From NCBI GenBank assembly GCA_963666275.2, contig CAXXOA010000001.1, positions 704,001 through 768,000 of the forward strand: a DNA stretch of 64,000 bases. The letters are read 5' to 3'. Every line of letters starts with the position of its first letter. Within the stretch, counting starts at the first letter, position 1. Position numbers and translations under genes: made by a program. Of the stretch, positions 1 to 16,964 are shown in pieces. The notes under the pieces were generated by a model. That model had not been told where the DNA came from. It made no database searches and saw only the letters and a program-made list of their open reading frames with translations. This DNA comes from Oceanispirochaeta sp. GTDB lineage: Bacteria > Spirochaetota > Spirochaetia > DSM-2461.

Positions 1-530
1 AATCAAAGAAACGAAAATTCAAAAAGGATATCGGAAAGAAAGAAAACATGATTTATGATCCTTCAACCGATCATTTCATTTGTGCGAAGGGAAAGAAGCT
101 AAAACTGAAATATGTTCGATCCAGGAAGAATCAATACGGTTATGAAACGACAACACATACATATCGTTGTGAAAGAGGGTGTAAGAGCTGCTCTCTCCGT
201 TCTTCCTGTATAAAACGAAGTAAGGCAGACTATAAACAGGTACAGATCAACCACAAGCTGTCATCTTATCAAAGAAGAGCTACTGCTTTGATATCCAGTC
301 CGGAAGGTAAAGAAATCCGTGTTAATAGAAGTATTCAGGCAGAAGGAGTATTTGCTCAGATCAAAGCCAACTGGTCATTCAGGAGATTTTTACGGGCAGG
401 AAAAACAGGTATCTATACAGAATGGCTATTAGTTTGTCTGGCTATGAATGCTGTTCATTTGGGAAATAGATTATCCCGAGATGAAGTTGGTAATCCCTTC
501 TATTATCAGATAAAGGATGAATCAGCATAG
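1..530 (+). mobile_element. IS1182-family transposase, C-terminal part (5' end lies outside the window)
   Basis: Frame is open from the window edge. Cys-rich segment YRCERGCKSCSLRSSC followed by RSIQAEGVFAQIKANWSFRRFLRAG, typical of the IS1182 DDE C-terminus. AT-rich. Confidence 0.8.
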
Positions 531-692
531 CTCTAAATCCATTTTTTAATAGATAATGTATAGTCTCAGGTGCATCACATAGGATAAGTGTCAGTAAATT
601 ACTAAACAAAATGGGAAATTATCAGAATTTTTATTACCAGAACAGAAGTTGTGATCTAAATAGTGATCAAAATAAAAAGAATTTGATTAATG

Positions 693-741
693 AAAAAAAG
701 AGGCTGTCGCATTTTTACTTTTGCAACAGCCCCTTTTTTTT
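693..741. terminator. Hairpin AAAAAAAGAGGCTGTCGCA...TGCAACAGCCCCTTTTTTTT; probable IS right end doubling as an intrinsic terminator
   Basis: Inverted repeat flanked by A and T tracts. The two mismatches become G.U pairs on the minus strand. It abuts the stop codon of 740..2011. Confidence 0.65.
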
Positions 742-2011
742 ACTGATCCAGAGGGATCGGATCCCCTTCGTTTTTGTACATACCTTTAAATTCAACATAA
801 TCTGCTGTGGAAAAAGTACTATCATTTACAGCGATATTAAAATAACAAGGTTCGTAGGGAAGGTCAGACCAGGCTAGATATTTATTAAATCTTAATTCCA
901 GAAACCCATCACCCGCACCACCGGTGTGTCCGCTACTATCTTGAGATGCATTGTAATTGACTTGAAAAGTACTTGTTAACCAGTCAGAACCATCATATTC
1001 CGCGTAAAAATTGTGTGAATAGGCTCCATTTTCCTGATCTACGTAAATATCAACGGAAGTTATGGCTCCTATGGAGCCGGAATCATAAAAAGTCAGCAGA
1101 AAGTAGATATAATCATCGTCTTGTTTTATATACACTTTATCAATGTCAGTATTGACTTCTCCAGAGTTATCGTCAGTCAAGACGAAATCCTGATACCAGT
1201 AGCCATATTCTTCCCATGCGGTTATATCAGCCAATGAATTATCATCACATGTGGGGGTTATTCCTCTGTAAAACTGCACAATAGGAGAGTCCATGCTCGG
1301 TTGGGTATCAGAAGAGCTTTTCAGGAGAATATTGAACGTATTTTCATCATTGGAATTATCTATATTCCCATCACCATACAGATTTTCATGATACTGGTAC
1401 CACGAACCAATATGAAAATTCATTCCTGAATCAGATGGTATATAGTTCCAATACGTTGCCTTGGATATCCCAAGCTCAATTGCATTTTCAGATTCATTAA
1501 TCCCTGCAAACCTGATTCCTGCATTATTCAGATCGTAATCTCCCGTGTCATCATAATACCTTGACCAGAAACCAATTGTTCCGTCACTTGTTATTCCGCC
1601 ATCTGGAGAATTGTGGGTTAAATTGAAAAGATTTATCCCATAATTTGATTCATTCAGATCAAAACTAACACTTATACTGGGTTCTGTTAAAGGATTTCCA
1701 TTATAGGATTCAATAAAAAAATAGAGAGTATCATTATCCTGAGCAGCTTTTAACTGGTACAGGTCTCCCCCTGCTATCATGGGGTAGCCGTTCTGAGCTG
1801 TATCTGAAGAGTCATCTGTATACAGAGGCTCTACGTTATCCCAATCCAACAGATCGCCGTCAATAGCAATATCATCCCTGTATTCCAGAGTAATCCCATC
1901 CTGGCCAGTCGGGTCATAGGGGTTGTCGAATACCATATCTTCATACATAAAGCATGCGGATAATAGAAGAGCGGCTCCTGCTGTAATGAAAAAAAGGCCC
2001 GTTTTTCTCAT
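740..2011 (-). CDS. Lipoprotein with two repeated DOMON/CBM9-like domains
   Basis: Lipobox LLLSAC; IAIDGDLLDW motif; internal repeat DLYQLKAAQDNDTLYFFI / DIDKVYIKQDDDYIYFLL; acidic and aromatic-rich. Confidence 0.6.
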   Translation of the reverse strand: MRKTGLFFITAGAALLLSACFMYEDMVFDNPYDPTGQDGITLEYRDDIAIDGDLLDWDNVEPLYTDDSSDTAQNGYPMIAGGDLYQLKAAQDNDTLYFFIESYNGNPLTEPSISVSFDLNESNYGINLFNLTHNSPDGGITSDGTIGFWSRYYDDTGDYDLNNAGIRFAGINESENAIELGISKATYWNYIPSDSGMNFHIGSWYQYHENLYGDGNIDNSNDENTFNILLKSSSDTQPSMDSPIVQFYRGITPTCDDNSLADITAWEEYGYWYQDFVLTDDNSGEVNTDIDKVYIKQDDDYIYFLLTFYDSGSIGAITSVDIYVDQENGAYSHNFYAEYDGSDWLTSTFQVNYNASQDSSGHTGGAGDGFLELRFNKYLAWSDLPYEPCYFNIAVNDSTFSTADYVEFKGMYKNEGDPIPLDQ

Positions 2012-2204
2012 AAAACTAAGTATAACAGAAATATAATAACCCCTCTATGGAAAAATGCATTCTTATAGGGAAACAGCTCTGTTAAGGTTCCATTAATTCC
2101 GTATGAGAAATAGGTTATGTCTTTTAGGATGATTTAAATACCTGAATATAAACAAAATAGATGTTTTTTAAGCCAGCAGGTCGGTCCCGCGTATGGTCAA
2201 CTCC

Positions 2205-2271
2205 TGTTAAGGTTTCTTAACATAAGCTAATTTACTTTGACAGACCGGAAATCTCTTTCTAATGTGTTTCT
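2205..2271 (+). promoter_or_regulatory. Sigma70-like promoter of the cys/sulfonolipid operon with an upstream palindrome; probably leaderless
   Basis: TTGACA (2237-2242), 17 bp, TAATGT (2260-2265), 6 bp, ATG, with no Shine-Dalgarno. Palindrome TGTTAAG-GTTT-CTTAACA at 2205-2222. Confidence 0.6.
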
Positions 2272-3153
2272 ATGGACCAACTGGATCAATTAGAAAGCAT
2301 CGGCATAAGAATCCTCCGGGAAGCTTATGCGAATTTTAAAAACCTGTGCATGCTCTGGTCAATCGGCAAGGACAGCACGGTTCTGTTATGGCTTGCCCGT
2401 AAAGCTTTTTACGGGCATGTTCCCTTTCCTCTGGTACACATCGACACACACTACAAGATTCCCGAAATGATCGAGTACAGAGACCGGCTGACCCGGGAAT
2501 GGAAACTGCCCATGGTCTACGGGGAGAACTCCGAAGCCCTGGCGGCCCATCAGACCTTTCCCGAAGGCAATGTGGACAGACTGACCTGCTGCCGCCTCCT
2601 GAAGGCCGAAGCCCTGAAGAATACCCTGAACGGAAGCTGGAAGCGTTACCGGTTCAATCATTCCACCGACCAGTATGAACTGGACAAGGATACGGAAATG
2701 TACACCGGAGTCATCGTGGGTGTACGGGCCGACGAAGAGGGGTCCCGTTCCAAGGAACGCTACTTCAGCCCCCGGGACAAGGAGAATATCTGGGACGTGG
2801 GAGATCAGCCCCCCGAGTTCTGGAACCAGTTTAAAACTGATTTTGCTCCGGGAACCCATGTGAGGATTCATCCTCTCCTGGACTGGACCGAGCTGAATAT
2901 CTGGGAGTACATCGAACGGGAGCAGATTCCCACGGTCTCCCTCTACTACGATCAGGGTTCAGGTCAGCGCTACCGTTCCCTGGGATGCGGTCCCTGTACC
3001 AATCCTGTGGAATCCACCGCAAAAAATGTGGGGGATATCATCACCGAGCTGAAAACAGGCAAGTTCGCCCATATCGCCGAGCGGTCCGGTAGGGCCCAGG
3101 ACAAGGATGACGGAGGCGGACTGGAAACTCTCAGAAGGGACGGGTACATGTGA
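2272..3153 (+). CDS. cysD: Sulfate adenylyltransferase subunit 2
   Basis: [12 protein letters not shown]-loop, [39 protein letters not shown]-terminal RRDGYM. Confidence 0.95.
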
Positions 3154-4961
3154 TGAGCAGAGATCAGATGAATATCGTCTTTACAGGACATGTGGACCAT
3201 GGCAAGAGTACGGTGGTCGGACGCCTTCTGGCCGATACGGACTCCCTTCCCGAAGGAAAGCTGGAACAGGTCAAACGGGAGTGTGAGCGCAACTCCAAAC
3301 CCTTCGAATACGCCTTTCTGCTGGATGCCCTGAAAGATGAGCAGTCCCAGGGCATCACCATCGATTCGGCCCGTGTCTTTTTCAATACTGAAAAGCGCGA
3401 CTACATCATCATCGACGCACCGGGTCATATCGAGTTTCTGAAAAATATGATAACCGGGGCAGCCCGGGCGGAAGCGGCTTTTCTTGTGATTGACGCCGAT
3501 GAGGGGGTTCAGGAAAACTCACGGCGCCACGGATACCTCCTCTCCATGCTGGGGATCCGTCAGCTCTGTGTCCTTGTCAATAAAATGGACCTGGTAGGTT
3601 ACAACAGGCAGGTCTATAACAAAATTGTGCGGAAGTACTCCCGGTTTCTGAAAAATATCAATCTCACCGATGTCAACTTCATTCCCGTCAGCGGCCGGGA
3701 AGGGGACAATATCTTCCACAGGGGCGGGAACATGCCCTGGTGGGAGGGCGGTACCGTTCTGGAGCTGCTGGATGCGTTTAAAAAAGAAAAACCTCTGGAC
3801 GATCTTCCCATGAGGATGCCTGTGACGGATATCTACAAGTTCACCAACTATGATGATTCCAGAAGGATCATTGCGGGGACTGTGGAAACCGGTAAATTCA
3901 AGCCGGGAGATGAGTTGATCTTCTATCCCTCCGGAAAGAAAAGTAAAATCAGAACAGTAGAAAGCTTCAATGCGGAAGTTCCTGCGGCTGTGACTGCCGG
4001 AATGGCTACAGGTGTCACTCTGGAGGAGCAGATCTATCTCTCCCGGGGGGCCGTGGCCTGCCGTTCCGACCAGCTGCCTCCCAAAGTGGGGAGCTATCTG
4101 AAAACAAGCCTTTTCTGGCTGGGCAAAGAGCCCCTTGTCAAAGGGAAAGAGTACATGCTGAAAAACGGAACCTCCAAGGTCCGGGCTCAGCTGGCCGAAA
4201 TTACCCGAGTCATCGATGCCTCCTCTCTGGATACGGAAAACACCCAGGAGCAGGTCAACAGGCATGAAGTGGCCGAATGTGTGTTCAGTCTCCAGAAAGC
4301 CATTGCCTTCGATCTGGTGGAGGAACTGCCCCAGACCAGCCGGTTTGTTCTCGTGGACGGGTATGAAATCGCCGGAGGAGGAATTATCCGTGACGTTCAT
4401 GACCACGGGCAGACCGAATACGGCGAGCAGTTGATCCGAAGAACCCTGGAGTGGGAAAACGGTATCGTCACCGAACTGGACAGGATGCAGACCTATGGTC
4501 AGAGACCCGCGCTGATCCTTGTCTCGGGTGAGCTGAACGGCGGAAAGAAAGCCTTTGCGGAAAAGCTTGAAAAGGAGCTCTTTTCCCTGGGAAAAAAGGT
4601 CTACTATCTGGGATACAAGAGCATCAAATTCGGACTGGACTCGGACCTCAGGGACGGCCGGGCCGAACGGCGTCAGCAGGCTGCCCGGGAAGAGCATATC
4701 CGCAGGATTGCCGAGATCGCCCATATCATGCTGGATGCGGGGCTCTTTTTTATAGTTAAAATCGATAATCTGACCTACGAGGAGAGGGATCTTATTCAGC
4801 TCCTCATGGGATCCTCCCGCCTGAAAACTGTCTGGGTGGGAGAAAAAATAGCGACGGACATTCAGCCTGACTGGCATGTAAAACGGCCTCTTGCTGTGGA
4901 CGAACATATGAAAGAAGTTCAGCAGATTCTGGTGGACTGGGAACTGGTGGAGGTACGTTGA
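3153..4961 (+). CDS. cysN: Sulfate adenylyltransferase subunit 1 (GTPase) fused to a degenerate APS-kinase-like domain
   Basis: [20 protein letters not shown] and NKMD motifs. C-terminal CysC-like domain with an altered P-loop ([10 protein letters not shown]). TGATG overlap with cysD. Confidence 0.9.
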
Positions 4962-6253
4962 TGAAGCAGTTCGAACCGACAAAATATAAAGTGCAGGCCC
5001 TTTGCTGCGGAAAAGTCTTCAGTGATCAGGGGCAGCCCCTGTCCTGTCCCGACTGCTCGGATCCGCATTTTCTGAGGGCTGATTATGAGAAGAAACAGCT
5101 GGACGTCAAAGAGGATGCCCTGGGGCTCTACAGATTCAGTGACTGGCTCCCTGTGGAAAAGACCCTGGAAGGCTCGGGAGCGCCTGTGACCTTCAGGAGC
5201 GAAAAACTGGCCGGGAAACTGGGCCTGAGCAATCTGTGGATCACCTTTAACGGCTGGTGGCCCGAAAAAGGCGCCTTTATGAAAACAGGAACCTTCAAAG
5301 AGTGCGAAGCCTACTCGGTCTGTGCCAGAATTCCAAAAGGAAAAAAGGGCATTCTGGTCGTGGCTTCCGCGGGAAATACAGCCAGGGCATTTGCCCGGGT
5401 GTGCTCTGAAAACAACATTCCCCTGGTCATCACCATCCCCGAAGACAATCTGGGTGCCATGTGGTCGGACAAACCTCTGGCGGACTGTGTCAAAATCATT
5501 GCCGCCTCCTCGGGGTCGGACTACTTCGATGCCATCGATCTGTCGAACAAAATCTGTCAGGGCGAAGATTTCTTTCCCGAAGGGGGCGCGAAAAACATAG
5601 CCCGGAGAGACGGAATGGGAACAACGGTCCTTTCCGCTGTGACAGCCATCGGTGAGATTCCCGACTACTATTTTCAGGCTGTCGGGAGCGGTACAGGCGC
5701 TATCGCCGCCTGGGAAGCCAATCTGAGATTCCTGAAAGACGGAAGGTTCGGCAATAAAAAGATGAAACTGATGGTCTCCCAGAATGCCCCGTTCAAAATT
5801 ATCTATGACTCCTGGAGGGCCGACAGCAGAGCCCTGGTGGCTCTGGATGATGATGAAGCCAGGCAGCAGGTGATTGCCATGAACGCCAAGGTGCTTTCCA
5901 ACCGGAAACCTCCCTATTCTTTGCCGAACGGTCTTTACGATGCCCTCAAGGATACAGGGGGAGATGTCCTTTTGGCGGACAATGAGGAAGCTGCCGAAGC
6001 GGGGCGCCTTTTCAGGGAGACCGAAGGAAATGATATCTCACCGGCTGCCTCGGTTGCCTTGGCATCTTTGATAAAAGCTGTTAACAATGATACGGTGAAG
6101 GCCGGCGAAACGGTGATGCTCAACATAACCGGAGGCGGCATGGGGCGATTTGCCTCTGAAAATACAGTAACAATTGCCAAAGCGGACCTTGTGTTTTCTC
6201 CCCGGGTGGATACACAGGAGCTGATAGAAGCGGTAAGAGATTTATTTAAATAA
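4961..6253 (+). CDS. Cysteate synthase (threonine-synthase-like PLP enzyme, Methanosarcinales type)
   Basis: TGTFKECEA (PLP Lys), VASAGNTARAF, EGGAKNIARRDGMGT, YFQAVGSGTGAIAAWEA, VLSNRKPPY; N-terminal Cys pairs. TGATG overlap with cysN. Confidence 0.85.
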   Translation: MKQFEPTKYKVQALCCGKVFSDQGQPLSCPDCSDPHFLRADYEKKQLDVKEDALGLYRFSDWLPVEKTLEGSGAPVTFRSEKLAGKLGLSNLWITFNGWWPEKGAFMKTGTFKECEAYSVCARIPKGKKGILVVASAGNTARAFARVCSENNIPLVITIPEDNLGAMWSDKPLADCVKIIAASSGSDYFDAIDLSNKICQGEDFFPEGGAKNIARRDGMGTTVLSAVTAIGEIPDYYFQAVGSGTGAIAAWEANLRFLKDGRFGNKKMKLMVSQNAPFKIIYDSWRADSRALVALDDDEARQQVIAMNAKVLSNRKPPYSLPNGLYDALKDTGGDVLLADNEEAAEAGRLFRETEGNDISPAASVALASLIKAVNNDTVKAGETVMLNITGGGMGRFASENTVTIAKADLVFSPRVDTQELIEAVRDLFK

Positions 6254-6293
6254 AAAGGTTTATTCAAACAACTCGATTAAGTAGGAGAAAACT

Positions 6294-7580
6294 ATGAGTG
6301 TAGATATTTTTGACAAGTGTAAAACAGACGGTGGATATTTCGGTAAATACAGAGCCGCCGGCGATAGAGACCTGACACGGCCCACCATGGATCCGATCCC
6401 CGGGAAAACCATGCAGTACAAGGGAGAAGAGTACGTGATGTGGTCTGTGAACAACTACATCGGACTGGCTGAAAACCAGGAAGTCAAAGCCGCTGCGGCC
6501 GAGGCTCTTGCGTCTTTCGGAACAAGTGCTCCCATGGGTTCCAGGATGATGAGCGGTAATACCCAGCACCATCAGGACCTTGAAAAACGCCTGGCTGATT
6601 TTTCCCAGAAAGAAGCGGCCTATCTGTTTAACTACGGCTATATGGGTGTTCTCGGTATTGTTTCTTCCCTCTGCGGCCCCAAAGATACGGTTGTGGTGGA
6701 CAAACTGGCTCATGCGTGTATCCTCGATGCCGCCGCCATGGCAAAAGCCGCAGGAGCGACTATCCGCTATTTTAAACACAACAATATGGAAGATCTGGAA
6801 AAGGTTCTTCAGAGTGTGAATAAAGGCAGGGAAGGGGGCGTCATGATCCTCATCGAGGGGGTTTACGGTATGACCGGAGACCTGGCTGACCTCCCCGGAA
6901 TCTGCGAACTGAAAGAAAAATACAACGCCCGCCTTTTCATCGATGATGCCCATGGTATCGGAGTTATGGGAGAAACAGGCCGCGGTACCGGCGACTTCTT
7001 CGGTGTTCAGGACAAGATCGATATCTACTTCGGAACCTTCGCCAAGGCTTTCGCGTCCATCGGCGGTTACTGTGCGGCCGATCAGGATGTGATCGACTGG
7101 ATTGCCTACAATGCCCGGACGCAGGTCTTTGCCAAGAGCCTCCCCATGGTCTATGTGAAAGCTCTGGACAGAACTCTGGACTTTGTGATTGAGGGAAATG
7201 ACAGGCGTCAGAAAATGTGGGACAACTCCCATAAACTGAGAGACGGACTGAGGGAACTGGGGTACTACATCGGCCCCGGTGAATCTCCCATCTGTTCCGT
7301 TTTTACCCCCACCGGGAGCGATGATCCCAACGGCATGGGTGTGAGAATGGTAAAATTCCTGAGAGAGAACAACATCTTTGTCACAGCTGTTGTCTATCCT
7401 GTTATTCCTCCCGGGCTGTGTATGTTCAGAATGATCCCCACCACATCCCATACAGATGCGGAAATCAACAGAACCATTGAGGTATTTGCCAGGATGAAAG
7501 AGGCCCTGGAGCTGGCAGACTCGGTCACCGATGACGATATCAGCAAGATTAAAAGAGTCTACAGGGAAAGAAAATCCTGA
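6294..7580 (+). CDS. PLP-dependent alpha-oxoamine synthase, SulA/CapB-like cysteate:acyl C-acyltransferase
   Basis: WSVNNYIGL, APMGSRMMSG, HACILD, EGVYGMTGD, DDAHG, GTFAK251, QVFAK281SLP. Lies directly after the cysteate synthase; SD AGGAG. Confidence 0.8.
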   Translation: MSVDIFDKCKTDGGYFGKYRAAGDRDLTRPTMDPIPGKTMQYKGEEYVMWSVNNYIGLAENQEVKAAAAEALASFGTSAPMGSRMMSGNTQHHQDLEKRLADFSQKEAAYLFNYGYMGVLGIVSSLCGPKDTVVVDKLAHACILDAAAMAKAAGATIRYFKHNNMEDLEKVLQSVNKGREGGVMILIEGVYGMTGDLADLPGICELKEKYNARLFIDDAHGIGVMGETGRGTGDFFGVQDKIDIYFGTFAKAFASIGGYCAADQDVIDWIAYNARTQVFAKSLPMVYVKALDRTLDFVIEGNDRRQKMWDNSHKLRDGLRELGYYIGPGESPICSVFTPTGSDDPNGMGVRMVKFLRENNIFVTAVVYPVIPPGLCMFRMIPTTSHTDAEINRTIEVFARMKEALELADSVTDDDISKIKRVYRERKS

Positions 7581-8287
7581 TGCAGAAAGATCTGGTTGCA
7601 CAGTATCAGAAAGAACTGGCCGGCGCTTCCCCCGGGGAGGTCCTGGCCTGGGCTCACAATACCTTTGATCTTTCCGGGATTGCCCTGTCCAACAGTCTGG
7701 GGCTGGAAGATATGGTCCTGACCGACATGCTTATGAAGATTGACCGGAATTTTCCGGTGTTCACCCTGGATACGGGGCGCCTCTTTCAGGAGACCTATGA
7801 TCTCATGGAAGAAGCCCGTACCCGGTGGAAGCTGTCTATGAAGGTTCTGTTTCCCGATCGGGAAGAAGTGGAGAGTCTGATGGTCCGGAAGGGCCCCAAC
7901 TCGTTCTACTACAGTCTGGATAACCGGAAAGAGTGCTGCCGGATCAGAAAGATCGAACCCCTGAAAAAAGAGCTGTCTACTCTGGATGCCTGGATCACCG
8001 GGCTCAGAAGAGAACAGTCTGTCACAAGGAATGAAGTTCAGTGCGTGGAATGGGATGAAGCCTTCGGTCTGATAAAGATCAATCCCCTTGTGGACTGGAG
8101 CGAAAAACAGTGCTGGGATTATGTAAAAGAGCATCATGTCCCGGTTCACAGTCTCCATAAAAAAGGCTTCCCCTCTATAGGCTGTGCTCCCTGTACCCGG
8201 GCTGTGAAACCCGGAGAAGATATCCGGGCCGGCCGCTGGTGGTGGGAAAATCCTGAAAGCAAAGAGTGCGGACTGCACAGAAAATAG
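7580..8287 (+). CDS. cysH: Thioredoxin-dependent APS reductase (Fe-S type CysH)
   Basis: LDTGRLF, ECCRIRK (CC), SIGCAPCT (CxxC), RAGRWWWE, KECGLH. TGATG overlap with the upstream gene. Confidence 0.93.
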   Translation: MQKDLVAQYQKELAGASPGEVLAWAHNTFDLSGIALSNSLGLEDMVLTDMLMKIDRNFPVFTLDTGRLFQETYDLMEEARTRWKLSMKVLFPDREEVESLMVRKGPNSFYYSLDNRKECCRIRKIEPLKKELSTLDAWITGLRREQSVTRNEVQCVEWDEAFGLIKINPLVDWSEKQCWDYVKEHHVPVHSLHKKGFPSIGCAPCTRAVKPGEDIRAGRWWWENPESKECGLHRK

Positions 8288-8307
8288 ATTTATCCGTTCC
8301 CCAGTAC

Positions 8308-8338
8308 AGGGACAGTTCTCAGGAACTGTCCCTTTTTT
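8308..8338 (+). terminator. Intrinsic terminator of the cys/sulfonolipid operon
   Basis: AGGGACAGTTC-TCAG-GAACTGTCCCT followed by a T tract. Confidence 0.85.
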
Positions 8339-9986
8339 AATGGAAAGGAGGGAGGAGCGACACTCTTCCGCTGTTTACCGCATCCTTGAAGGTTTCATAA
8401 ATATCCTGCTCAGCCAGGATTTCAAGAATTCCTGACTTCTCCAATGTTTCCCTGACATCATGGTTCAGTCCGGAAAGAAGAACTTTGATCCCCCTTTTTC
8501 TGAGAAAGCGCAGAGCATCAAACAGGGCTTTCTGACCGGTCTGATCAATAAAGGACACATGACGCATCCTTATGATAATAGCCCTGTTTGTGATTCCCAC
8601 TTCCTTCACAACCTCCGCATACTGTCTGGCCGAGGCAAAAAACAGAGGGCCGCTGATCTCATAAATACCAAGATCAGAAGGCAGATCGGAATAGTCCTCG
8701 ATCACATCGGTATCCACAATATGATCGATCCTCTTTTCTGCGAACTCGGACATACGGATCATAAACAGAAGGCTGGAGAGCACAATCCCTATCTCTATGG
8801 CAGCAACGAGATCGACGACAACTGTCAGGATAAATGTAACCAGGAGAACAATCCTGTCGTTCCTGTTGCTTCTCAGAATGGCCGCAAAAGACCGCCATTC
8901 ACTCATATTGTAAGCCACTATAATCAGGATTCCCGCCAGACAGGGCATGGGTATGTAGGAGGCAAAGCGGCCGAAGAAAAGCATAATGCACAGAAGGGTA
9001 ACAGAGTGAGTCATTCCGGCAATAGGAGTGCGACCTCCGTTTTTGACATTCGTAGCGGTTCTGGCAATTGCACCGGTTGCGGGGATTCCTCCGAACAGAG
9101 GGGTCACAATATTGGCAATTCCCTGGGCTATCATTTCAGTGTTGGATCGGTGATTTCCGCTGATCATACCGTCTGAAACCGTGGCGGAGAGCAGGGATTC
9201 AATGCCTCCCAGAAGGGCGAGAACCAGTCCCGACTGGAGGTAGAAGGGAATATCCGAATGAACGAATCCCGGTATGGTCAGGGAGATACCCCGGGGAATC
9301 TCTCCGAAAAGAGATCCGATCGTTGACACGGGTATGTCAAGGAGCCTGACAACCAGGCTCACAAGGAGGATGGCTATAAACGACCCGGGGATCCTTTTAA
9401 AGACCCTTCCCGAAAGTAGGACAATCCCGATGGTCACAGCTGTAACCGCCGGAGCGGCAGGGTTCATATCGGAAAAGGCTCCTCCGTAGGCCTGCCATTT
9501 CTGAAAAAACTCTCCCGGGACCTTATCCAGAGGAAGGCCCAGGGCGTCCTTGACCTGGGTGGTGAATATGACCAGAGCTATCCCGCTGGTAAATCCGACA
9601 ATCAGGGAGTGGGGTATGAATTTCAGAAGTTTGCCCAGTTTCAGAACTCCGAAAAATACAAGTATGATTCCGGCCAGCAGGGTGGAATAGAAAAGCCCCT
9701 GGTATCCTTTGAGCTGAACGATTTCAAATATAAGGATTACAAAAGCCCCGGTGGGGCCGCCAATCTGAACCCGGCTTCCTCCGAGCAGGGCAATAAGAAA
9801 TCCGGCCAGGATTCCTGTGATCAGTCCCCTTTCGGGAGAGACTCCCGAAGCAACAGCAAAGGCTATGGAAAGGGGGAGGGCCACAATGCCCACCACAACG
9901 CCGGCCATAAGATCGCTGAGTATCTGCTGTTTCTCAAACCCGGATCGCAGCAGGGTAAAAAATTTGGGTGTAAACGGGTCTTTCAT
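8337..9986 (-). CDS. SulP/SLC26 anion transporter with STAS domain
   Basis: DLMAGVVVGIVALPLSIAFA, GGSRVQIGGPTGA, GGIPATGAIART; C-terminal STAS domain (GPLFFAS...FIDQTG). Confidence 0.92.
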   Translation of the reverse strand: MKDPFTPKFFTLLRSGFEKQQILSDLMAGVVVGIVALPLSIAFAVASGVSPERGLITGILAGFLIALLGGSRVQIGGPTGAFVILIFEIVQLKGYQGLFYSTLLAGIILVFFGVLKLGKLLKFIPHSLIVGFTSGIALVIFTTQVKDALGLPLDKVPGEFFQKWQAYGGAFSDMNPAAPAVTAVTIGIVLLSGRVFKRIPGSFIAILLVSLVVRLLDIPVSTIGSLFGEIPRGISLTIPGFVHSDIPFYLQSGLVLALLGGIESLLSATVSDGMISGNHRSNTEMIAQGIANIVTPLFGGIPATGAIARTATNVKNGGRTPIAGMTHSVTLLCIMLFFGRFASYIPMPCLAGILIIVAYNMSEWRSFAAILRSNRNDRIVLLVTFILTVVVDLVAAIEIGIVLSSLLFMIRMSEFAEKRIDHIVDTDVIEDYSDLPSDLGIYEISGPLFFASARQYAEVVKEVGITNRAIIIRMRHVSFIDQTGQKALFDALRFLRKRGIKVLLSGLNHDVRETLEKSGILEILAEQDIYETFKDAVNSGRVSLLPPFH

Positions 9987-10271
9987 ATATGCTCCTGATT
10001 ATCTGACAATCTCTTTGTACACCTTCTATTTCTTCCTTTACAATCCCTTCCCCTGATAAAGCAGAGGACGGGAGGATATTTTCTGCGATTTTCTGAGCCC
10101 TCCGGAACCGGCTTCTTCTAGTGTTTTCGTACTATTTTCCCCTTTCCCCCCTTTTCTTATAAGGAAAAACCCGCTATGGTATAGATATTAAAATGACAAA
10201 AATACTTAAAGTGTCAAAATAAAGATTTCCCTCGCACCCAACGGGTCGGGATTTCTGTATCAAAACAGGAG

Positions 10272-13200
10272 ATGGGAATGGATCTACAGACTTTAAGAGA
10301 ATACTTCAAACACATGGTTACCGCCCGTGAAATGGATCTGCTTGAGCAGAGTTACACAGGGCGTGGAGAAGCCTTCTTTCATGTATCCGGAGCAGGGCAT
10401 GAAGGAACCTGTTTTCTGAATGCCGTACTGGGCGAACAGGACTGGCTCCACTGTCACTACAGGGATAAAGCCCTCATGCTGGCGAGAGGCATCGATTCAA
10501 AGATGTTCTTTATGTCCCTTTTCAATAAAGATCAGTCCCATTCCAGGGGACGTCAGATGAATGCCCACATGAGTGATCCTGAGAGAAAGGTCCTCAGCAT
10601 TGTCGGTCCGGTAGGAAACAGCGCACTCCAGGCTGTGGGTGTCGCCGAAGCGGTTAAAGATGAAAAGGACAACCCCGTTGTCCTCTGCGGTCTTGGTGAC
10701 GGAATGAGTCAGCAGGGAGAGGTTCTGGAAGCTGTCGCTCATGCGGTAAGAAAAGAACTTCCTGTACTGTTTTTTATTCAGGATAACAGTTTTGCCATAT
10801 CGACCAAAACAAAAGGGAAAACCTTTTTCTCCCATCCTGAGGGAGATGCGGAAGAATTCTACGGAATCCCCATTGTCCGCATGGACGGACGGTATCCTCA
10901 GAATCTTTATAAACCTATGGAAGAGGTCGTACAGGGAATCCGGGATACCCGGAAACCGGCGATCGTCGTCTTCTCGGTTGACCGTCTTCACAGCCATACC
11001 AATGCGGATGATCACAGGGTCTACAGAACCGAGGAGGAGATTAAAGCTCTTCATAAATCGGGAGATCCCATAGATCAGATGCATGCCTGGCTGCTGGATC
11101 AGGGTGTCGATGAGAAAGAGCTGGAACAGGAGAGAGAGCAGATAGTTGCGGAGCTCAAAGAAAAAGCCCGGGCGGCTCAGATGTCTCCCGAACCGGAACC
11201 CTTTTTCTCTGCGAAAAAAGAAATCCCCCCTCATCTGACAGATCCGAAACAGGAGTACAGAGGAACCCCGGGAAAAGAAGAGCTTACAATGCTGGAAGCG
11301 ATCAGGGAAACCCTCCGTTTTCATCTGGAAAGGAACCCTGCCGTAGAGCTCCTGGGAGAAGATCTGGAAGATCCCAAAGGGGATGTTTTCGGAATTACAA
11401 AAACACTGACACAGGAATTTTCCCGGCGTGTGGAAAACAGCCCTCTTACCGAGTCCACCATTGTGGGGCTTTCTGTAGGAAGGGCTCTGGCTGGAAAACG
11501 TCCTGTCGCATTCCTGCAGTTTGCGGATTTTCTTCCCATTGCGTTTAACCAGCTATGGGCGGAGATGGGCAGTATGTTCTGGAGAACCGACGGCGGCTGG
11601 CAGTGCCCCATGATCGTCATGGTTTCCTGCGGAGGATACAAGCCGGGACTCGGCCCCTTCCATGCCTCCAGTATGGAATCGGTGGCTGCCCATATCCCCG
11701 GAGTCGATGTGGTTATGCCCTCCACCGCAGGGGATGCCGCAGGCCTTCTGAATGCCGCTATGGAGTCGGAAAGGCCTACCATATTCTTCTACCCCAAAGT
11801 CTGTCTGAACGAATCCCTGGGTAAAACCAGTCCCGATGTGTCCAGGCAGCTTGTTCCCCTGGGAGTGGCCAGAAAGCTCAGCGAAGGTGAGCATCTGACC
11901 ATGGTCTCCTACGGGAATACCATCAAGCTCTGCCAGAAAGCGGCGGATGTTCTGAAAAATCAGGGTGTTCACTGTGATATTCTGGACCTGCGATCCATCT
12001 CCCCCTGGGATCAGAAGGCCGTTCTGGAATCTGCTGAAAAAACAGGAAAGCTGATCATTGTCCAGGAGGAGAACGGTACAGCTTCCTTTGCTTCCGAAGT
12101 GGCGGCCTATGTGGCGGAACATGCCGGGACAGCTGTGAAAATCCGCCGTCTTACCAGAGAGGACACATTTGTTCCCTGTAATTTCGATTGTCAGCTGGCT
12201 GTACTGCCTTCCTATCAGAGGATCCTTGAAACAGCTGTTGATCTGTTCGGCGGATCCATCTCCTGGAAGAAGGATGAGTCCGCAGAAGCGGGAATCTTTT
12301 CCGTGGAGATCATCGGAACCAGTCCCGCAGACGAAACTGCCACAGTCATTGAGTGGAAGGTTGAGCCGGGTGACGTTATAGAAGAGGGGGATCTGCTGGC
12401 AGAGATCGAAGCGGATAAAGCCGCAGCGGAAATGAAATCTCCCGTATCCGGTACGGTAGAGGAACTCCTTCTGGATGAGGGAGAAGCTGTTGAGATCGGT
12501 ACTCCCGCACTGAAGGTTAAAACCGGTGAAAATGCGGAAATCTCCCTGAAACCCAAAACAAAAGAAGATCCCGGTGAACCTGTCATTTCAGGGCTTCAGC
12601 TGGAAACTTCATCAACCGACGCGGCACCGGCGGTTTCCGGTGACAGACGCCCCTACCTTGTGGATGTGGCAGGCACCCTGGGAAGCCGGGTTGTAGATAA
12701 CGATGAGATCATGAAGTCCTGTCCCGGATGGGAAGAGGGCGAAATCCTGAAAATGACAGGAATAGAAAAACGCTGCTGGATTGATGAAGGGGAGAATATT
12801 CTTACCCTTTCCCGCACAGCCTCTCAGACTGTGCTCGAAAGAAACGGACTGTCCCTGGACGACCTGAGTCTTATCATCGTTTCAAGCGGCACCCCTGATA
12901 TGATCACCCCCTCCATGGCCACTAGGCTGCAGTATGCGCTGATGCCCGGGGGAAAACGGAAAATGAGCTGTCCCGCTTTTGATATCAACGCCGCCTGTTC
13001 GGGATACCTGTACGGACTGCAGTCCGCCTGGGATTTTCTCAATACCAAGCCCGACGGACTTGTTCTTCTGGTAACAGCGGAAGTCCTTTCTCCTCTGGTG
13101 GATCTGACTGACAAGTCCACTTCCCCCATTTTCGGAGACGGCGCCACAGCCACACTGATAGCCGGTGTCAATCATAAACTGAAAGCACAGGGCAAAGCCC

Positions 13201-13616
13201 GGCTTTTCCGTCCCGTCACAGCTGCTGCCGGAGAACCGGGAGAGATCCTGACCGTTCCCGCCAACCCGGTGGAGCCTATTTTCATGCACGGTCCCAAGGT
13301 TTACCTGGAAGCGGTACAGAGCATGATCGAACTGCTGGGCAGTGCCATGGAACAGGATGGGAAGACTCTGCAGGATGTCTCTCTGATTGTCCCCCATCAG
13401 GCTAACCAGAGGATCATCAATGCAGTACGTCAGAGGCTTAAAATCAGAGAAGAGCAGATCTACAGCGAGATCAGATACAGAGGAAATACATCCTCCTGTA
13501 CGATCCCCCTCTGTCTTGAAACCCTGGTGAATGAGAGAAAATCCGGAGATATTCTGGGTATGACAGCATTCGGCGGCGGATTCACCTCTGCCGGCGGTCT
13601 TCTGGAAATTCTGTAA
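10272..13616 (+). CDS. Fusion protein: 2-oxoacid dehydrogenase E1alpha + E1beta + lipoyl domain + beta-ketoacyl-ACP synthase III (FabH-like)
   Basis: HYRD and GDG...QDN TPP motif; E1beta GEDL..KGDVFG and NSPLTES; lipoyl EADK716A; KASIII triad AAC909SG, PH1042QAN, GN1072TSS, plus FGGG. SD CAGGAG. Confidence 0.9.
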   Translation: MGMDLQTLREYFKHMVTAREMDLLEQSYTGRGEAFFHVSGAGHEGTCFLNAVLGEQDWLHCHYRDKALMLARGIDSKMFFMSLFNKDQSHSRGRQMNAHMSDPERKVLSIVGPVGNSALQAVGVAEAVKDEKDNPVVLCGLGDGMSQQGEVLEAVAHAVRKELPVLFFIQDNSFAISTKTKGKTFFSHPEGDAEEFYGIPIVRMDGRYPQNLYKPMEEVVQGIRDTRKPAIVVFSVDRLHSHTNADDHRVYRTEEEIKALHKSGDPIDQMHAWLLDQGVDEKELEQEREQIVAELKEKARAAQMSPEPEPFFSAKKEIPPHLTDPKQEYRGTPGKEELTMLEAIRETLRFHLERNPAVELLGEDLEDPKGDVFGITKTLTQEFSRRVENSPLTESTIVGLSVGRALAGKRPVAFLQFADFLPIAFNQLWAEMGSMFWRTDGGWQCPMIVMVSCGGYKPGLGPFHASSMESVAAHIPGVDVVMPSTAGDAAGLLNAAMESERPTIFFYPKVCLNESLGKTSPDVSRQLVPLGVARKLSEGEHLTMVSYGNTIKLCQKAADVLKNQGVHCDILDLRSISPWDQKAVLESAEKTGKLIIVQEENGTASFASEVAAYVAEHAGTAVKIRRLTREDTFVPCNFDCQLAVLPSYQRILETAVDLFGGSISWKKDESAEAGIFSVEIIGTSPADETATVIEWKVEPGDVIEEGDLLAEIEADKAAAEMKSPVSGTVEELLLDEGEAVEIGTPALKVKTGENAEISLKPKTKEDPGEPVISGLQLETSSTDAAPAVSGDRRPYLVDVAGTLGSRVVDNDEIMKSCPGWEEGEILKMTGIEKRCWIDEGENILTLSRTASQTVLERNGLSLDDLSLIIVSSGTPDMITPSMATRLQYALMPGGKRKMSCPAFDINAACSGYLYGLQSAWDFLNTKPDGLVLLVTAEVLSPLVDLTDKSTSPIFGDGATATLIAGVNHKLKAQGKARLFRPVTAAAGEPGEILTVPANPVEPIFMHGPKVYLEAVQSMIELLGSAMEQDGKTLQDVSLIVPHQANQRIINAVRQRLKIREEQIYSEIRYRGNTSSCTIPLCLETLVNERKSGDILGMTAFGGGFTSAGGLLEIL

Positions 13617-15911: not shown

Positions 15912-16964
15912 CTAGTCTCTGACCCGGCCCAGGCCCAGGAGTTTCAGCAACCACTTGGCCAGAGGTTTGGCGGGGTTCCTTTTTTTCAGATTCAGATACC
16001 AGTTCCATTTTTTCACGATGGGGATTTTATGGGTTTCCACGAATTCGATCAGCGTTCCATCCGGATCTTCACAGTAGGAAAACCGGCCAGCCGCCTCTCC
16101 CATGTCAAAGGAGTTTCCCGTATCCACGGTAAAAGGAAAGCCTTTTTCCCTGAGAGTTTCTCCCAGTTCATCCATGCCGTTCACATCGAAGCAGAGATGG
16201 ATAAAACCGGCATCTCCCCAGTAACGGTCTTTGAAGATTTTTTCAGGTTTCCGTTCCAGGCACTGGATCAGCTCTATGCTTCCGTAGCCGAACATCTCCG
16301 CAAACGCTCCCTGTCTCGGTTCCATATGGGTCAGCAGAACTCTTCTGAATGAACCGTCTCCTCCGGGCAGGGCGGAAAGGTCTTCAAAACTTCCGGTCTG
16401 ATCATAAGCTGTGGTGGAGTATCCCAGAATATCACGGTACAGGGGGAGGGCTTTGTCTATATCGCTGACGCCGATCACAGCTCCGCAGGGGCCTGCAGTC
16501 AGACCGGGTCTGCTGAAGAAATCCTCAGCCGTCAGAATCTCAAAAATATTACCGTAAGGATCCCTGGCATAAAAGTGGTCTCTTCCGACAGGATCCTTTT
16601 CCACTTTTCCCAGGATATCCACGCCCTGATCTCTGTAATGATCAAAAACGGCTTTTACATCAGGAGCTTTTATTTTGCCTATCTGTATTCCCAGGTCACC
16701 TATCTTCAATGGGGCGTCGGGGAATACTGTCTCCCTGGTGGTGTACTGCCAGATTTCAAATCCGCTGCCTCCGCCAAGGTTCAGAGCCAGAACCGCATCC
16801 CGTCCCTGGACTTTGTCTCCTGTGTAGCGGGTCATGAAGGGGGCATCTGCCGCTTCCTGAAATACAGGGACATCCATGCCGAAATATTTTCTGTACCAGG
16901 CCCAGGCTTTGTTCCTGTCGGCTACGCCTATACCTAACTGCTGAATTCCGCTGATGATTGTCAT
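15912..16964 (-). CDS. Two-domain VOC (glyoxalase-like) family protein
   Basis: IQQLGIGVAD, FYARDPYGNIFEI, IHLCFDV, YCEDPDGTLIEFVE; basic amphipathic C-terminus. Confidence 0.85.
   Translation of the reverse strand: MTIISGIQQLGIGVADRNKAWAWYRKYFGMDVPVFQEAADAPFMTRYTGDKVQGRDAVLALNLGGGSGFEIWQYTTRETVFPDAPLKIGDLGIQIGKIKAPDVKAVFDHYRDQGVDILGKVEKDPVGRDHFYARDPYGNIFEILTAEDFFSRPGLTAGPCGAVIGVSDIDKALPLYRDILGYSTTAYDQTGSFEDLSALPGGDGSFRRVLLTHMEPRQGAFAEMFGYGSIELIQCLERKPEKIFKDRYWGDAGFIHLCFDVNGMDELGETLREKGFPFTVDTGNSFDMGEAAGRFSYCEDPDGTLIEFVETHKIPIVKKWNWYLNLKKRNPAKPLAKWLLKLLGLGRVRD

What the first reader, a model, noticed from the sequence alone, without database searches (positions are those of the whole stretch)
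2272..8287. Self-contained sulfate-to-sulfonolipid operon in an apparent spirochaete
Seen: five co-oriented genes with three TGATG stop/start overlaps, one promoter and one terminator: cysD, cysN, cysteate synthase, alpha-oxoamine synthase, APS reductase. No sulfite reductase or cysteine synthase is in the operon. Established: CysDN makes APS; Fe-S CysH releases sulfite; Methanosarcinales-type cysteate synthase joins phosphoserine and sulfite; Bacteroidota CapB/SulA condenses cysteate with a fatty acyl thioester to give 3-dehydrocapnine. Inference: sulfate activation here feeds a sphingolipid-like capnine/sulfobacin-type sulfonolipid rather than cysteine. I know of no characterised capnoid pathway in spirochaetes, and such an anionic lipid could matter for their outer sheath.
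Basis: partly seen in the sequence, partly recalled or inferred. Interest (0 to 1): 0.92.

Follow-up and report, generated by a model that had tools for sequence, protein, structure and literature searches.

The report
Spirochaete sulfate-to-sulfonolipid-base operon
A marine spirochaete carries one operon that should turn sulfate into sulfite, sulfite into cysteate, and cysteate plus a fatty acid into the backbone of a sulfonolipid, a membrane lipid that reviews still assign to Bacteroidota only.

Summary
Five co-oriented genes (cysD, cysN, cysteate synthase, an alpha-oxoamine synthase, Fe-S APS reductase) run from 2272 to 8287, with three TGATG overlaps and a terminator hairpin.

The oxoamine synthase matches the solved cysteate fatty acyltransferases CapB and SulA far better than serine palmitoyltransferase. 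It keeps their diagnostic Lys281 and most pocket residues.

The 97%-complete genome has no sulfite reductase domain, no second APS kinase and no sulfopyruvate decarboxylase. Sulfite therefore has no obvious fate other than cysteate.

Across 41 related genomes, cysD, cysH, cysteate synthase and the acyltransferase occur together in 18, none with sulfite reductase. The two relatives with sulfite reductase lack the lipid genes.

"Self-contained" is too strong. The ketoreductase and N-acyltransferase are not in the operon. A conserved two-domain VOC (glyoxalase-fold) protein at 15912-16964 was missed; it co-occurs with the acyltransferase in 20 of 20 holders.

No lipid or expression data exist. 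A published lipidome of one Oceanispirochaeta species lists no capnines.

This scan has already reported similar spirochaete operons on other DNA. Verdict: a new member of a known kind, of moderate-to-high interest.

The parts
2237..2265 (+). Possible promoter: TTGACA, 17-base spacer, TAATGT. It ends 7 bases before the cysD ATG, which would imply a leaderless or near-leaderless mRNA.
   Evidence: Read from the sequence. Not called by the promoter scan. Unverified.
2272..3153 (+). cysD, sulfate adenylyltransferase small subunit
   Evidence: NF003587, 339 bits against a cut-off of 195. PF01507. 67-95% identical copies in 21 of 40 relatives.
3153..4961 (+). cysN, the GTPase subunit of sulfate adenylyltransferase, with a degenerate C-terminal APS-kinase-like domain
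   Evidence: TIGR02034, 344.5 against 336.1. The APS-kinase part reaches only 43.8 bits against 138.7. Its Walker A ends in Lys instead of Ser/Thr, and no DGD-type motif is seen in the translation (the motifs are recalled). It is the only PF01583 match in the genome.
4961..6253 (+). Cysteate synthase (O-phosphoserine + sulfite -> L-cysteate), of the archaeal / Alistipes type
   Evidence: TIGR03844 equivalog, 469.6 bits against 324.9; threonine synthase models reach at most 64 bits. It is the only match over the cut-off in the genome.
6294..7580 (+). Cysteate-C-fatty acyltransferase (CFAT = CapB = SulA type): cysteate + acyl-ACP/CoA -> 3-ketocapnine + CO2
   Evidence: Best PDB matches are 28eh (CFAT, 355.5 bits) and 7u7h (SulA, 331.9 bits); SPT reaches 223 bits. 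N53, H140, K251, K281 and R379 are present. The genome's own Kbl has N at position 281 and its own Spt-like paralogue has A.
7580..8287 (+). cysH, Fe-S APS reductase (APS -> sulfite)
   Evidence: TIGR02055, 264.3 bits against 235.3. The Cys-Cys pair, the CxxC motif and the C-terminal ECGLH are seen in the translation (the motif meanings are recalled).
8308..8333 (+). Intrinsic terminator hairpin between the convergent cysH and sulP genes
   Evidence: 11-pair stem with 6 GC pairs, then a T run.
8337..9986 (-). SulP-family anion permease with a STAS domain; a possible sulfate importer
   Evidence: PF00916, 266 bits, and PF01740. TIGR00815, 348.7 bits, is below its cut-off of 380. It sits next to the operon in 1 of the 17 relatives' loci (L028).
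10272..13616 (+). E1alpha-E1beta-lipoyl-FabH fusion (1114 aa). It probably supplies iso-branched fatty-acid primers. It follows cysH on the same strand within the genus.
   Evidence: Domains. Adjacent to cysH in 7 of 8 same-genus loci. The fusion is widespread in Spirochaetes.
15912..16964 (-). Two-domain VOC (glyoxalase-fold) protein, a conserved partner of CFAT with an unknown step
   Evidence: PF00903 and PF13669. 46-59% identical orthologues lie beside CFAT in other loci. Its cluster is present in 49 of 98 loci, Bacteroidales included. It is found in 20 of 20 CFAT-holding genomes and 1 of 21 others. Model pLDDT is 93.9, and there is no close characterised fold match.

Best explanation
The operon is a dedicated head-group branch for a capnine-type sulfonolipid.

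Proposed steps:
1. CysD/CysN adenylate sulfate to APS.
2. The Fe-S APS reductase CysH reduces APS to sulfite.
3. Cysteate synthase adds the sulfite to O-phosphoserine, giving L-cysteate.
4. The CFAT (CapB/SulA-type) enzyme condenses cysteate with a long, probably iso-branched, acyl thioester. This gives 3-ketocapnine and releases CO2.

The genome has no sulfite reductase, so the sulfite is not on the way to cysteine. Cysteine is made from sulfide by CysK.

Later steps are encoded elsewhere: ketoreduction by an unlinked SDR, N-acylation by an unknown enzyme, and an unknown step by the conserved VOC protein at 15912-16964.

Shown here: gene identities, diagnostic residues, synteny and phyletic pattern. 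Inferred: every enzymatic activity, the acyl chain, and that the end product is a membrane lipid.
For: **Family assignments.** Cysteate synthase, CysD, CysN and APS reductase all score above curated cut-offs.

**The oxoamine synthase is CFAT-like.**
- It matches the solved CFAT 28eh (E 3e-105, 355.5 bits) and SulA 7u7h (331.9 bits). The best SPT reaches 223 bits and the best Kbl 207 bits.
- SulA's distinguishing Lys281, which is Ala in Spt (PMC9304779, passages read), is Lys in this protein and in all 8 other CFAT-like rows compared.
- The same genome's Kbl has Asn and its Spt-like paralogue has Ala at that position.
- The pocket residues whose alanine mutants lose activity in Capnocytophaga CFAT are N52, G114, Y115, H139, C141, H219, T247, K250 and K280 (PMC13692747, parts 1-3 of 5 read). 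All are conserved here. F113 is Tyr.

**Searches of the window's own genome.**
- No PF01077 sulfite reductase in this 97%-complete genome; the control genomes ring in 11 of 14.
- CysK is present.
- There is no APS kinase other than CysN's degenerate domain.
- No sulfopyruvate decarboxylase alpha subunit was found.

**Phyletic pattern over 41 genomes**.
- cysD, cysH, cysteate synthase, CFAT and VOC occur together in 18, and none of these 18 has PF01077.
- The only two genomes with PF01077 (G018, G029) have cysD and cysH beside it, but no cysteate synthase, CFAT or VOC.
- 17 genomes have none of the five.

**Synteny.**
- cysD-cysN-cysteate synthase-CFAT is kept in 15 of 17 relatives' loci.
- cysH follows directly in 8 of 8 same-genus loci.
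- Cysteate synthase lies directly upstream of CFAT in 30 of 80 loci from named genomes.

**Tree.** The protein sits deep in a 40-row spirochaete clade (SH-aLRT 96) inside a CFAT-like group of 84 rows. That group is separated from Kbl and the Spt-like paralogue with support 99. Operon GC (52.6%) is like that of its neighbours. The gene set therefore looks long resident rather than recently acquired.

**Acyl donors.** Oceanispirochaeta strains have iso-C13:0 and iso-C15:0 as major fatty acids (PMC11129491, section 11 and Table S45 read). This suits the iso-branched acyl donor of capnine.
Against: - No lipid, enzyme or transcript datum exists for this organism; no RNA run was listed.
- The published intact-polar-lipid table of Oceanispirochaeta piezotolerans M1/M2 sums to about 100% of peak area. 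It lists hexosyl-, PC, PG, an unknown phospho-sugar lipid and cardiolipins, but no capnine. The same group reports capnines in its Bacteroidota isolates (PMC11129491, Table S46 read).
- Caveats to that table: I could not establish whether that species carries the operon, since 2 of 10 same-genus genomes searched lack it and the supplement holds no such gene terms. The cultures were also sulfidic.
- The reductase is only a candidate. The best SDR, at G000:C2:594678-595493, is 40-43% identical to CFAT-adjacent SDRs of other spirochaetes. The N-acyltransferase is unknown.
- PF01077 does not cover every conceivable sulfite-reducing enzyme.
- No experimentally characterised CFAT sequence was in my tree. 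The link to characterised enzymes rests on the PDB sequence search.
Confidence: 0.72

Rival explanations
1. This is an ordinary assimilatory sulfate-reduction operon for cysteine and methionine. The two PLP enzymes are passengers or are misassigned, for example as a threonine-synthase-like enzyme and a Kbl/BioF-type enzyme.
For: cysD, cysN and cysH are the standard assimilatory genes. The oxoamine synthase is below every NCBIfam cut-off, with bioF, Kbl and SPT models all near 300 bits.
Against: - No PF01077 sulfite reductase in this genome or in the 17 relatives with the same gene set.
- The two relatives that do assimilate by the canonical route keep cysD and cysH beside sulfite reductase and lack both PLP genes.
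- The genome has a separate, true Kbl next to tdh.
- The ThrC-like gene scores 469.6 bits on the cysteate synthase equivalog and at most 64 bits on threonine synthase models.
Confidence: 0.04
2. Cysteate is made for a non-lipid purpose, such as coenzyme M as in Methanosarcinales, taurine, or a compatible solute. The oxoamine synthase then uses another amino acid, or makes a small soluble aminoketone signal in the manner of CqsA.
For: TIGR03844 was defined on the coenzyme M pathway enzyme; the single control genome over the cut-off is consistent with this. Acyl chain length cannot be read from the sequence. The published Oceanispirochaeta lipidome lists no capnine.
Against: - No sulfopyruvate decarboxylase alpha subunit in the genome.
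- Cysteate synthase and CFAT co-occur in 19 of 41 genomes, and each occurs alone in only one.
- The two are adjacent in 16 of 17 relatives' loci.
- The CFAT pocket residues, including Lys281, are conserved.
- All six characterised members of the CFAT branch use cysteate and long-chain acyl donors (PMC13692747).
Confidence: 0.12
3. The pathway is real but conditionally silent or vestigial. The genes are kept, yet sulfonolipid is made only under particular conditions, such as sulfate present with sulfide or phosphate scarce, or not at all in culture.
For: The sulfidic-culture lipidome of a congener shows no capnines. Two of 10 congeners searched lack the whole set, so it is dispensable.
Against: - All five reading frames are intact here and in 17 relatives, with no internal stops.
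- The overlaps and gene order are conserved across genera.
- Loss is of the whole set, as expected for a functional module.
Confidence: 0.12

Closest known systems
Capnine / sulfobacin pathway of Bacteroidota: cysteate synthase (CapA or the archaeal-type Cys), CapB = SulA = CFAT, CapC/KCR reductase, and an unknown N-acyltransferase (PMC9304779, PMC11211663, PMC13692747, review PMC10191378)
   Same: - The same two committed enzymes are present: an archaeal-type cysteate synthase, as in Alistipes and Odoribacter, and a CFAT with Lys281 and the cysteate pocket.
- The expected product is the same, 3-ketocapnine.
- An SDR and a VOC gene accompany CFAT in rumen Bacteroidales MAGs, as they do in some spirochaete and Bacillota-labelled loci.
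   Different: - The phylum is Spirochaetota.
- The two genes are welded into one operon with sulfate activation (cysDN) and APS reduction (cysH).
- The genome has no sulfite reductase, so the sulfate-reduction branch appears to serve the lipid alone.
- In A. finegoldii the cfat, Cys and kcr genes are reported as unclustered (PMC11211663, passage read).
- No product has been shown here.
Bacterial serine palmitoyltransferase (Spt; e.g. PDB 3a2b, 2jg2) and sphingolipid synthesis
   Same: The same fold-type I alpha-oxoamine synthase scaffold, catalytic Lys, and conserved Asn53, His140 and Arg.
   Different: The score is 223 bits, against 355 for CFAT. Position 281 is Lys rather than Ala. E188, A250 and F246 follow CFAT rather than Spt. 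The genome has a separate Spt-like paralogue with Ala at that position.
Canonical assimilatory sulfate reduction (CysDN, APS/PAPS reductase, sulfite reductase, CysK), as in the relatives G018 and G029
   Same: CysD, CysN and the Fe-S APS reductase are orthologous: 67-74% (cysD) and 51-56% (cysH) identical to those of G018 and G029.
   Different: There is no sulfite reductase. The acceptor of sulfite is phosphoserine, through cysteate synthase, rather than reduction to sulfide.
Methanosarcinales coenzyme M pathway (cysteate synthase, then an aminotransferase, then sulfopyruvate decarboxylase ComDE)
   Same: The cysteate synthase belongs to the same equivalog family, TIGR03844.
   Different: No ComD was found. 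The gene's partner here is an acyltransferase, not an aminotransferase and decarboxylase.

Membership tests
Cysteate-C-fatty acyltransferase (CFAT / CapB / SulA) | Fold-type I alpha-oxoamine synthase with a PLP-binding Lys (SulA Lys251, CO-CFAT Lys250) | tested here: met
   PF00155, 156 bits. K251 aligns with the catalytic Lys of 28eh and 7u7h and is invariant in 14 of 14 spirochaete homologues.
Cysteate-C-fatty acyltransferase (CFAT / CapB / SulA) | Lys at SulA position 281, which is Ala in Spt. K281A is inactive (PMC9304779) and K280A retains under 10% activity (PMC13692747). | tested here: met
   K281 is present in the window protein and in 8 of 8 other CFAT-like rows. The genome's own Kbl has N and its own Spt-like paralogue has A.
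Cysteate-C-fatty acyltransferase (CFAT / CapB / SulA) | Sequence closer to characterised CFATs than to SPT, Kbl, BioF or ALAS | tested here: met
   28eh 355.5 bits and 7u7h 331.9 bits, against SPT 223, Kbl 207, BioF 159 and ALAS 161. In the tree it lies inside the CFAT-like group, apart from Kbl, but no characterised sequence was in that tree.
Cysteate-C-fatty acyltransferase (CFAT / CapB / SulA) | Cysteate pocket of CO-CFAT: N52, G81, A82, F113, G114, Y115, H139, C141, E187, D216, H219, F245, T247, A249, M277, F278 and K280 | tested here: met
   14 of these 17 are identical. The differences are A82->S, F113->Y and M277->V. This comes from counting along the alignment and.
Cysteate-C-fatty acyltransferase (CFAT / CapB / SulA) | Cysteate-dependent condensation with a long-chain acyl thioester, and little activity with Ser, Gly or Ala | not testable with these tools
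   This needs an enzyme assay.
Cysteate synthase (TIGR03844) | Score above the curated equivalog cut-off, and distinct from threonine synthase | tested here: met
   469.6 bits against 324.9; the best ThrC model reaches 63.9 bits against 303.
Cysteate synthase (TIGR03844) | Makes L-cysteate from O-phosphoserine and sulfite | not testable with these tools
   This needs an enzyme assay.
Fe-S, thioredoxin-dependent APS reductase (CysH, TIGR02055) | Score above the cut-off, plus the Cys-Cys and CxxC cluster ligands and the C-terminal catalytic Cys | tested here: met
   264.3 bits against 235.3. The motifs are visible in the translation. That they mark the APS-specific class is recalled, not tested.
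Assimilatory sulfate reduction to sulfide | A siroheme sulfite reductase (NIR_SIR, PF01077) in the genome | tested here: not met
   0 matches in G000, which is 97% complete. Only 2 of 41 related genomes have one, and neither has the lipid genes.
Complete capnine/sulfonolipid pathway | 3-ketocapnine reductase (CapC / KCR, an SDR) | tested here: inconclusive
   There is no SDR in the operon. An SDR cluster accompanies CFAT in 33 of 98 loci. The best own-genome counterpart is C2:594678-595493, 40-43% identical; a second is C1:2375373-2376200 at about 34%. Orthology is not proven.
Complete capnine/sulfonolipid pathway | Capnine N-acyltransferase | not testable with these tools
   In the papers I read this step is described without a named enzyme (PMC10191378, PMC9304779; passages read), so I had no query sequence for it.
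Coenzyme M biosynthesis | Sulfopyruvate decarboxylase ComD (TIGR03845) | tested here: not met
   0 matches in G000.

The most novel reading that the evidence does not exclude
Many Spirochaetia, and several other non-Bacteroidota lineages, build capnine-type sulfonolipids into their envelope. In sulfide-dwelling spirochaetes that have lost sulfite reduction, the whole sulfate-activation and APS-reduction branch survives only to make this lipid head group. The two-domain VOC metalloenzyme that tracks CFAT in every phylum sampled is an undescribed, obligatory enzyme of sulfonolipid synthesis. It may be, for example, an isomerase or epimerase acting on the labile alpha-aminoketone 3-ketocapnine.
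Probability: 0.3. Interest if true: 0.78.

Novelty: new member of a known kind. Interest (0 to 1): 0.6.

Why it matters
Sulfonolipids are outer-membrane lipids and potent signals. They are involved in gliding, choanoflagellate rosette induction and TLR4-related host effects. [quoted passage not shown]

A conserved, vertically inherited pathway in free-living Spirochaetia would extend them to a second diderm phylum with an unusual envelope. It would also give a concrete reason why strict anaerobes without sulfite reductase keep cysDN and cysH.

The operon-level coupling shows where the sulfite comes from, which is an open point for anaerobes. The strict co-occurrence of a VOC protein with CFAT offers a testable candidate for a missing pathway step that would also apply to gut and rumen Bacteroidales.

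For annotation, these cysDNH genes should not be read as evidence that the organism assimilates sulfate into cysteine.

Tried and rejected
**Expression.** The look-up of sequencing runs listed no RNA holder; the three holders are one study's DNA-type contigs. Nothing can be said on expression, and read laying was not used.

**Leader RNA.** Rfam at the gathering threshold over 1-17500 gave no match, so no riboswitch or leader was recognised upstream of cysD.

**Second oxoamine synthase.** I first suspected that the second oxoamine synthase lying near the cluster in six spirochaete loci was a pathway member. It is Kbl (over 640 bits on the glycine C-acetyltransferase models; 62-64% identical to this genome's Kbl) and was dropped.

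**The 423-aa divergent gene at 740-2011.** It has no Pfam or NCBIfam family. The Atlas gives only unnamed clusters, with a recognition value just below the guide level. It recurs beside the operon only within the genus (6 loci). Its function is left open.

**VOC protein.** The profile search of PDB sequences gave only weak single-domain glyoxalase-family hits (E >= 1e-7). The fold search gave two-domain glyoxalase-family proteins at TM 0.5-0.58 and 13-16% identity. The fold is confirmed but no function can be transferred. A search for papers holding both 'sulfonolipid' and 'glyoxalase' found 2, neither about this protein by title or abstract.

**O. piezotolerans supplement.** It was searched for cysteate, sulfate adenylyltransferase and reductase terms, with no occurrence. 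I could not tell whether the lipid-profiled species carries the operon.

**Recent transfer from Bacteroidota.** This was considered and set aside. The spirochaete sequences form their own clade that follows genus groupings, and GC is unremarkable.

Full report
**What is in the sequence.**

Five + strand ORFs occupy 2272-8287.
- Pfam and NCBIfam name them:
  - CysD: NF003587, 339 bits against a cut-off of 195.
  - CysN: TIGR02034, 344.5 against 336.1.
  - Cysteate synthase: the TIGR03844 equivalog, 469.6 against 324.9. The best threonine synthase model reaches 64 bits.
  - An alpha-oxoamine synthase that stays below every NCBIfam cut-off.
  - A thioredoxin-dependent APS reductase: TIGR02055, 264.3 against 235.3.
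- The stop/start overlaps TGATG are at 3151-3155, 4959-4963 and 7578-7582.
- The one gap, 6254-6293, ends in an AGGAG ribosome-binding site.
- An 11-pair hairpin with a T run at 8308-8333 closes the unit. It is shared with a convergent SulP permease gene at 8337-9986.
The scan calls nothing on the + strand upstream, and the region's site count is at chance level (10 against 6.8 +/- 2.9). By eye there is TTGACA at 2237-2242, then 17 bases, then a poor TAATGT.
- No Rfam family matches upstream.

**Details of the sulfate branch.**
- CysH shows a Cys-Cys pair, a CxxC motif and a C-terminal ECGLH. From memory these mark the Fe-S, APS-specific class.
- CysN carries a conserved C-terminal APS-kinase-like domain that scores far below its family cut-off (43.8 against 138.7 bits). 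Its Walker A ends in Lys rather than Ser/Thr.
- That domain is the only PF01583 match in the genome. PAPS is therefore probably not made, and the route runs from APS to sulfite.

**The key enzyme.**
- Against all PDB sequences, the 6294-7580 product is closest to the Capnocytophaga ochracea cysteate-C-fatty acyltransferase (28eh, E 3e-105, 355.5 bits). Next comes Alistipes finegoldii SulA (7u7h, 331.9 bits).
- Serine palmitoyltransferases follow at 223 bits, Kbl at 207 and BioF at 159.
- The 2026 CFAT structure paper (PMC13692747, parts 1-3 of 5 read) lists the cysteate pocket. It shows that Y115A and K250A abolish activity and that F113A, G114A, H139A and K280A cut it below 10%.
- In the window protein the equivalents N53, G115, Y116, H140, C142, E188, D217, H220, F246, T248, A250, K251, F279 and K281 are all present. 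The three differences are A82->S, F113->Y and M277->V.
- As an internal control, this genome's Kbl (next to tdh) has Asn at position 281. Its third oxoamine synthase, an Spt-like domain fused to a FemAB/GNAT-like domain, has Ala there.

**Whole-genome context.**
- The window lies in a 5.27-Mb, 3-contig, 97%-complete genome.
- It has no NIR_SIR domain (PF01077) at all, while 11 of 14 control genomes ring.
- It has a good CysK.
- It has no sulfopyruvate decarboxylase alpha subunit.
- Sulfite made by CysH thus has one recognisable consumer, the cysteate synthase in the same operon.

**Relatives.**

Six searches over the same 41 genomes (G000 plus 40) give a clean pattern.
- cysD, cysH, cysteate synthase, CFAT and a VOC protein (see below) are all present in 18 genomes. 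None of these 18 has PF01077.
- G018 and G029 are the only genomes with PF01077. They have cysD and cysH beside it and none of the three lipid-linked genes.
- Three genomes have partial sets:
  - G015 (74% complete): cysD, cysteate synthase and VOC.
  - G027: cysteate synthase, CFAT and VOC, but no cysD or cysH.
  - G034: CFAT and VOC only.
- G025 has cysD alone.
- 17 genomes have none of the five.
- Two of ten congeners (G006, G010) lack the whole set.
- These genomes are kin and not independent, so I give counts and no statistics.

**Synteny.**
- Around the cysteate synthase of 17 relatives, the order cysD-cysN-cysteate synthase-CFAT is kept in 15.
- The exceptions are one locus that ends at a contig edge and one with only the pair.
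- cysH follows directly in all 8 same-genus loci.
- In 7 of those 8, an E1alpha-E1beta-lipoyl-FabH fusion gene comes next.
- In the window, sulP is inserted between these two.

**Taxonomy and wider range.**
- Close homologues of the CFAT and of the fusion protein are labelled by their sources as unclassified Oceanispirochaeta, Spirochaetales, Spirochaetaceae or Spirochaetia. Oceanispirochaeta is a genus of Spirochaetaceae, Spirochaetota.
- A pattern scan of one genome per species found 561 confirmed relatives of the CFAT, of which the best 80 were kept.
- In those 80 loci a cysteate synthase lies directly upstream in 30, cysD-cysN as well in 11, and a cysH-like gene is adjacent in 9.
- Labels include Spirochaetales, Treponemataceae and Brevinematales. 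They also include Bacillota, Anaerofustis, WOR-3, Aminicenantes, Neomarinimicrobiota, one Fictibacillus isolate, Chitinophagales and many rumen Bacteroidales. MAG labels may be wrong.
- Two of the 80 loci are sequence-identical to loci already fetched from relatives and are not independent.
- A quick maximum-likelihood tree was built with LG+G4, SH-aLRT support only, and 90 rows. Cluster members outside 380-470 aa were left out.
  - It separates 84 CFAT-like rows from Kbl and the Spt-like paralogue (support 99).
  - It places the window protein deep in a 40-row spirochaete clade (96) whose inner structure follows the genus groupings.
- Operon GC is 52.6% against a genome mean of 47.8%, but it matches its neighbours. 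This looks like long residence, not recent import.
- No experimentally characterised CFAT was in the tree.

I clustered all ORFs of 98 loci (the window's first 20 kb plus L023-L119; greedy ORF calls, which miss some genes, including the window's own CFAT).
- The most frequent neighbour of CFAT is a two-domain VOC/glyoxalase-fold protein of about 350 aa. It is present in 49 of 98 loci.
- It lies convergent after CFAT or cysH in spirochaetes. It forms 'VOC-SDR | CFAT' next to BamA/OmpH genes in Bacteroidales. It lies in a single cysteate synthase-CFAT-SDR-VOC row in Bacillota-labelled MAGs.
- The window's copy is at 15912-16964 on the minus strand and is 46-59% identical to the others.
- In the 41 genomes it is found in 20 of 20 CFAT holders, even where it is unlinked. 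Among the 21 others it is found only in the incomplete G015.
- Its model is confident (pLDDT 93.9). The nearest solved structures are uncharacterised or distant two-domain glyoxalase-family proteins (TM 0.5-0.58, 13-16% identity).
- Invariant Gln8, Glu70 and Glu307, and near-invariant His256, recall a glyoxalase-I-type metal site. That is my recollection, not a test.
- I regard it as a probable further pathway enzyme of unknown step. A role on the labile alpha-aminoketone intermediate is speculation.
- An SDR cluster, the likely 3-ketocapnine reductase, accompanies CFAT in 33 of 98 loci. In one relative it directly precedes cysD on the same strand.
- This genome's best counterpart is unlinked, at C2:594678-595493, and is 40-43% identical.
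- So the operon is not self-contained. As encoded it would end at 3-ketocapnine.

**Evidence against.**
- No lipid, enzyme or transcript data exist, and no RNA run was listed.
- The only relevant lipidome I found is that of Oceanispirochaeta piezotolerans M1/M2. It was grown in sulfidic medium and profiled by a group that reports capnines in its Bacteroidota isolates. It lists no capnine (PMC11129491, section 11 and Tables S45/S46 read).
- I could not determine whether that species has the operon.
- Its fatty acids are dominated by iso-C13:0, C14:0, iso-C15:0 and C16:0. This fits the neighbouring branched-chain primer enzyme and the iso-acyl donor of capnine.

**Novelty.**
- Full-text searches for sulfonolipid + spirochaet (14 papers), capnine + spirochet (6) and cysteate + spirochaet (5) were run. 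None of the listed titles or abstracts describes such a pathway, and the two papers I opened (PMC11129491, PMC12019592) do not either.
- Against that, a 2024 paper reports Cys, cfat and kcr homologues in 13 phyla of the human microbiota (PMC11211663, passages read). A wider genetic range is therefore already in print in general terms. Figures and preprint supplements were not visible to me.
- This scan has itself reported similar spirochaete operons or gene pairs on other DNA at least five times.
- New here:
  - cysH inside the operon.
  - The genome-wide lack of sulfite reductase, with the reciprocal pattern in relatives.
  - The strict co-occurrence of VOC with CFAT.

**Verdict.** It is a new member of a known pathway in a new phylum, with a dedicated sulfite-supply module. 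Interest is moderate to high, pending a lipid measurement.

Noticed in passing
window 10272-13616 (+): A 1114-aa single polypeptide joins 2-oxoacid dehydrogenase E1alpha, E1beta, a lipoyl domain and FabH, with no E2 catalytic domain. It follows cysH in 7 of 8 same-genus loci and is widespread in Spirochaetes, including Spirochaeta thermophila. Separate E2 domains exist elsewhere in the genome. The scan has noted this fusion several times on other DNA as a possible CoA-independent primer route.
   Followed up: partly
G000:C1, locus L021:1456-3864 (-): An 802-aa fusion joins a FemAB-like/GNAT acyltransferase domain to an Spt-like oxoamine synthase. Its best model is serine palmitoyltransferase NF047600, at 444 bits, below the 640 cut-off. 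It has Ala at the SulA-281 position. It may mean the organism also makes a ceramide-like lipid, although the review calls sphingolipids and sulfonolipids mutually exclusive in Bacteroidota.
   Followed up: partly
window 3153-4961, residues about 433-603 of CysN: A degenerate APS-kinase-like C-terminal domain is conserved on CysN in all relatives' copies, which are about 600 aa long. It may be regulatory rather than catalytic.
   Followed up: partly
window 740-2011 (-) and 48-530 (+): A low-GC (39%) 423-aa gene with no family is divergent from the operon and recurs only within the genus. Beside it lies the C-terminal fragment of an IS1182-family transposase.
   Followed up: partly
relatives G027 and G034: G027 has cysteate synthase, CFAT and VOC but no cysD or cysH. 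G034 has CFAT and VOC but no TIGR03844 cysteate synthase. These genomes must obtain sulfite or cysteate in another way.
   Followed up: no
G000:C2, locus L022:2745-3818 (-): Next to the Kbl/Tdh pair, a 357-aa protein has a C-terminus that matches the mercury-methylation ferredoxin HgcB model above its cut-off (109.9 bits against 99). It also matches an HgcAB-like fusion model weakly.
   Followed up: no
window 13733-14917 (-) and 15132-15704 (-): An RCC1-repeat protein gene and a TetR regulator gene lie between the E1-FabH gene and the VOC gene here, whereas congeners have those two adjacent. Unrelated TetR genes sit upstream of the cysteate synthase in 7 other spirochaete loci.
   Followed up: no
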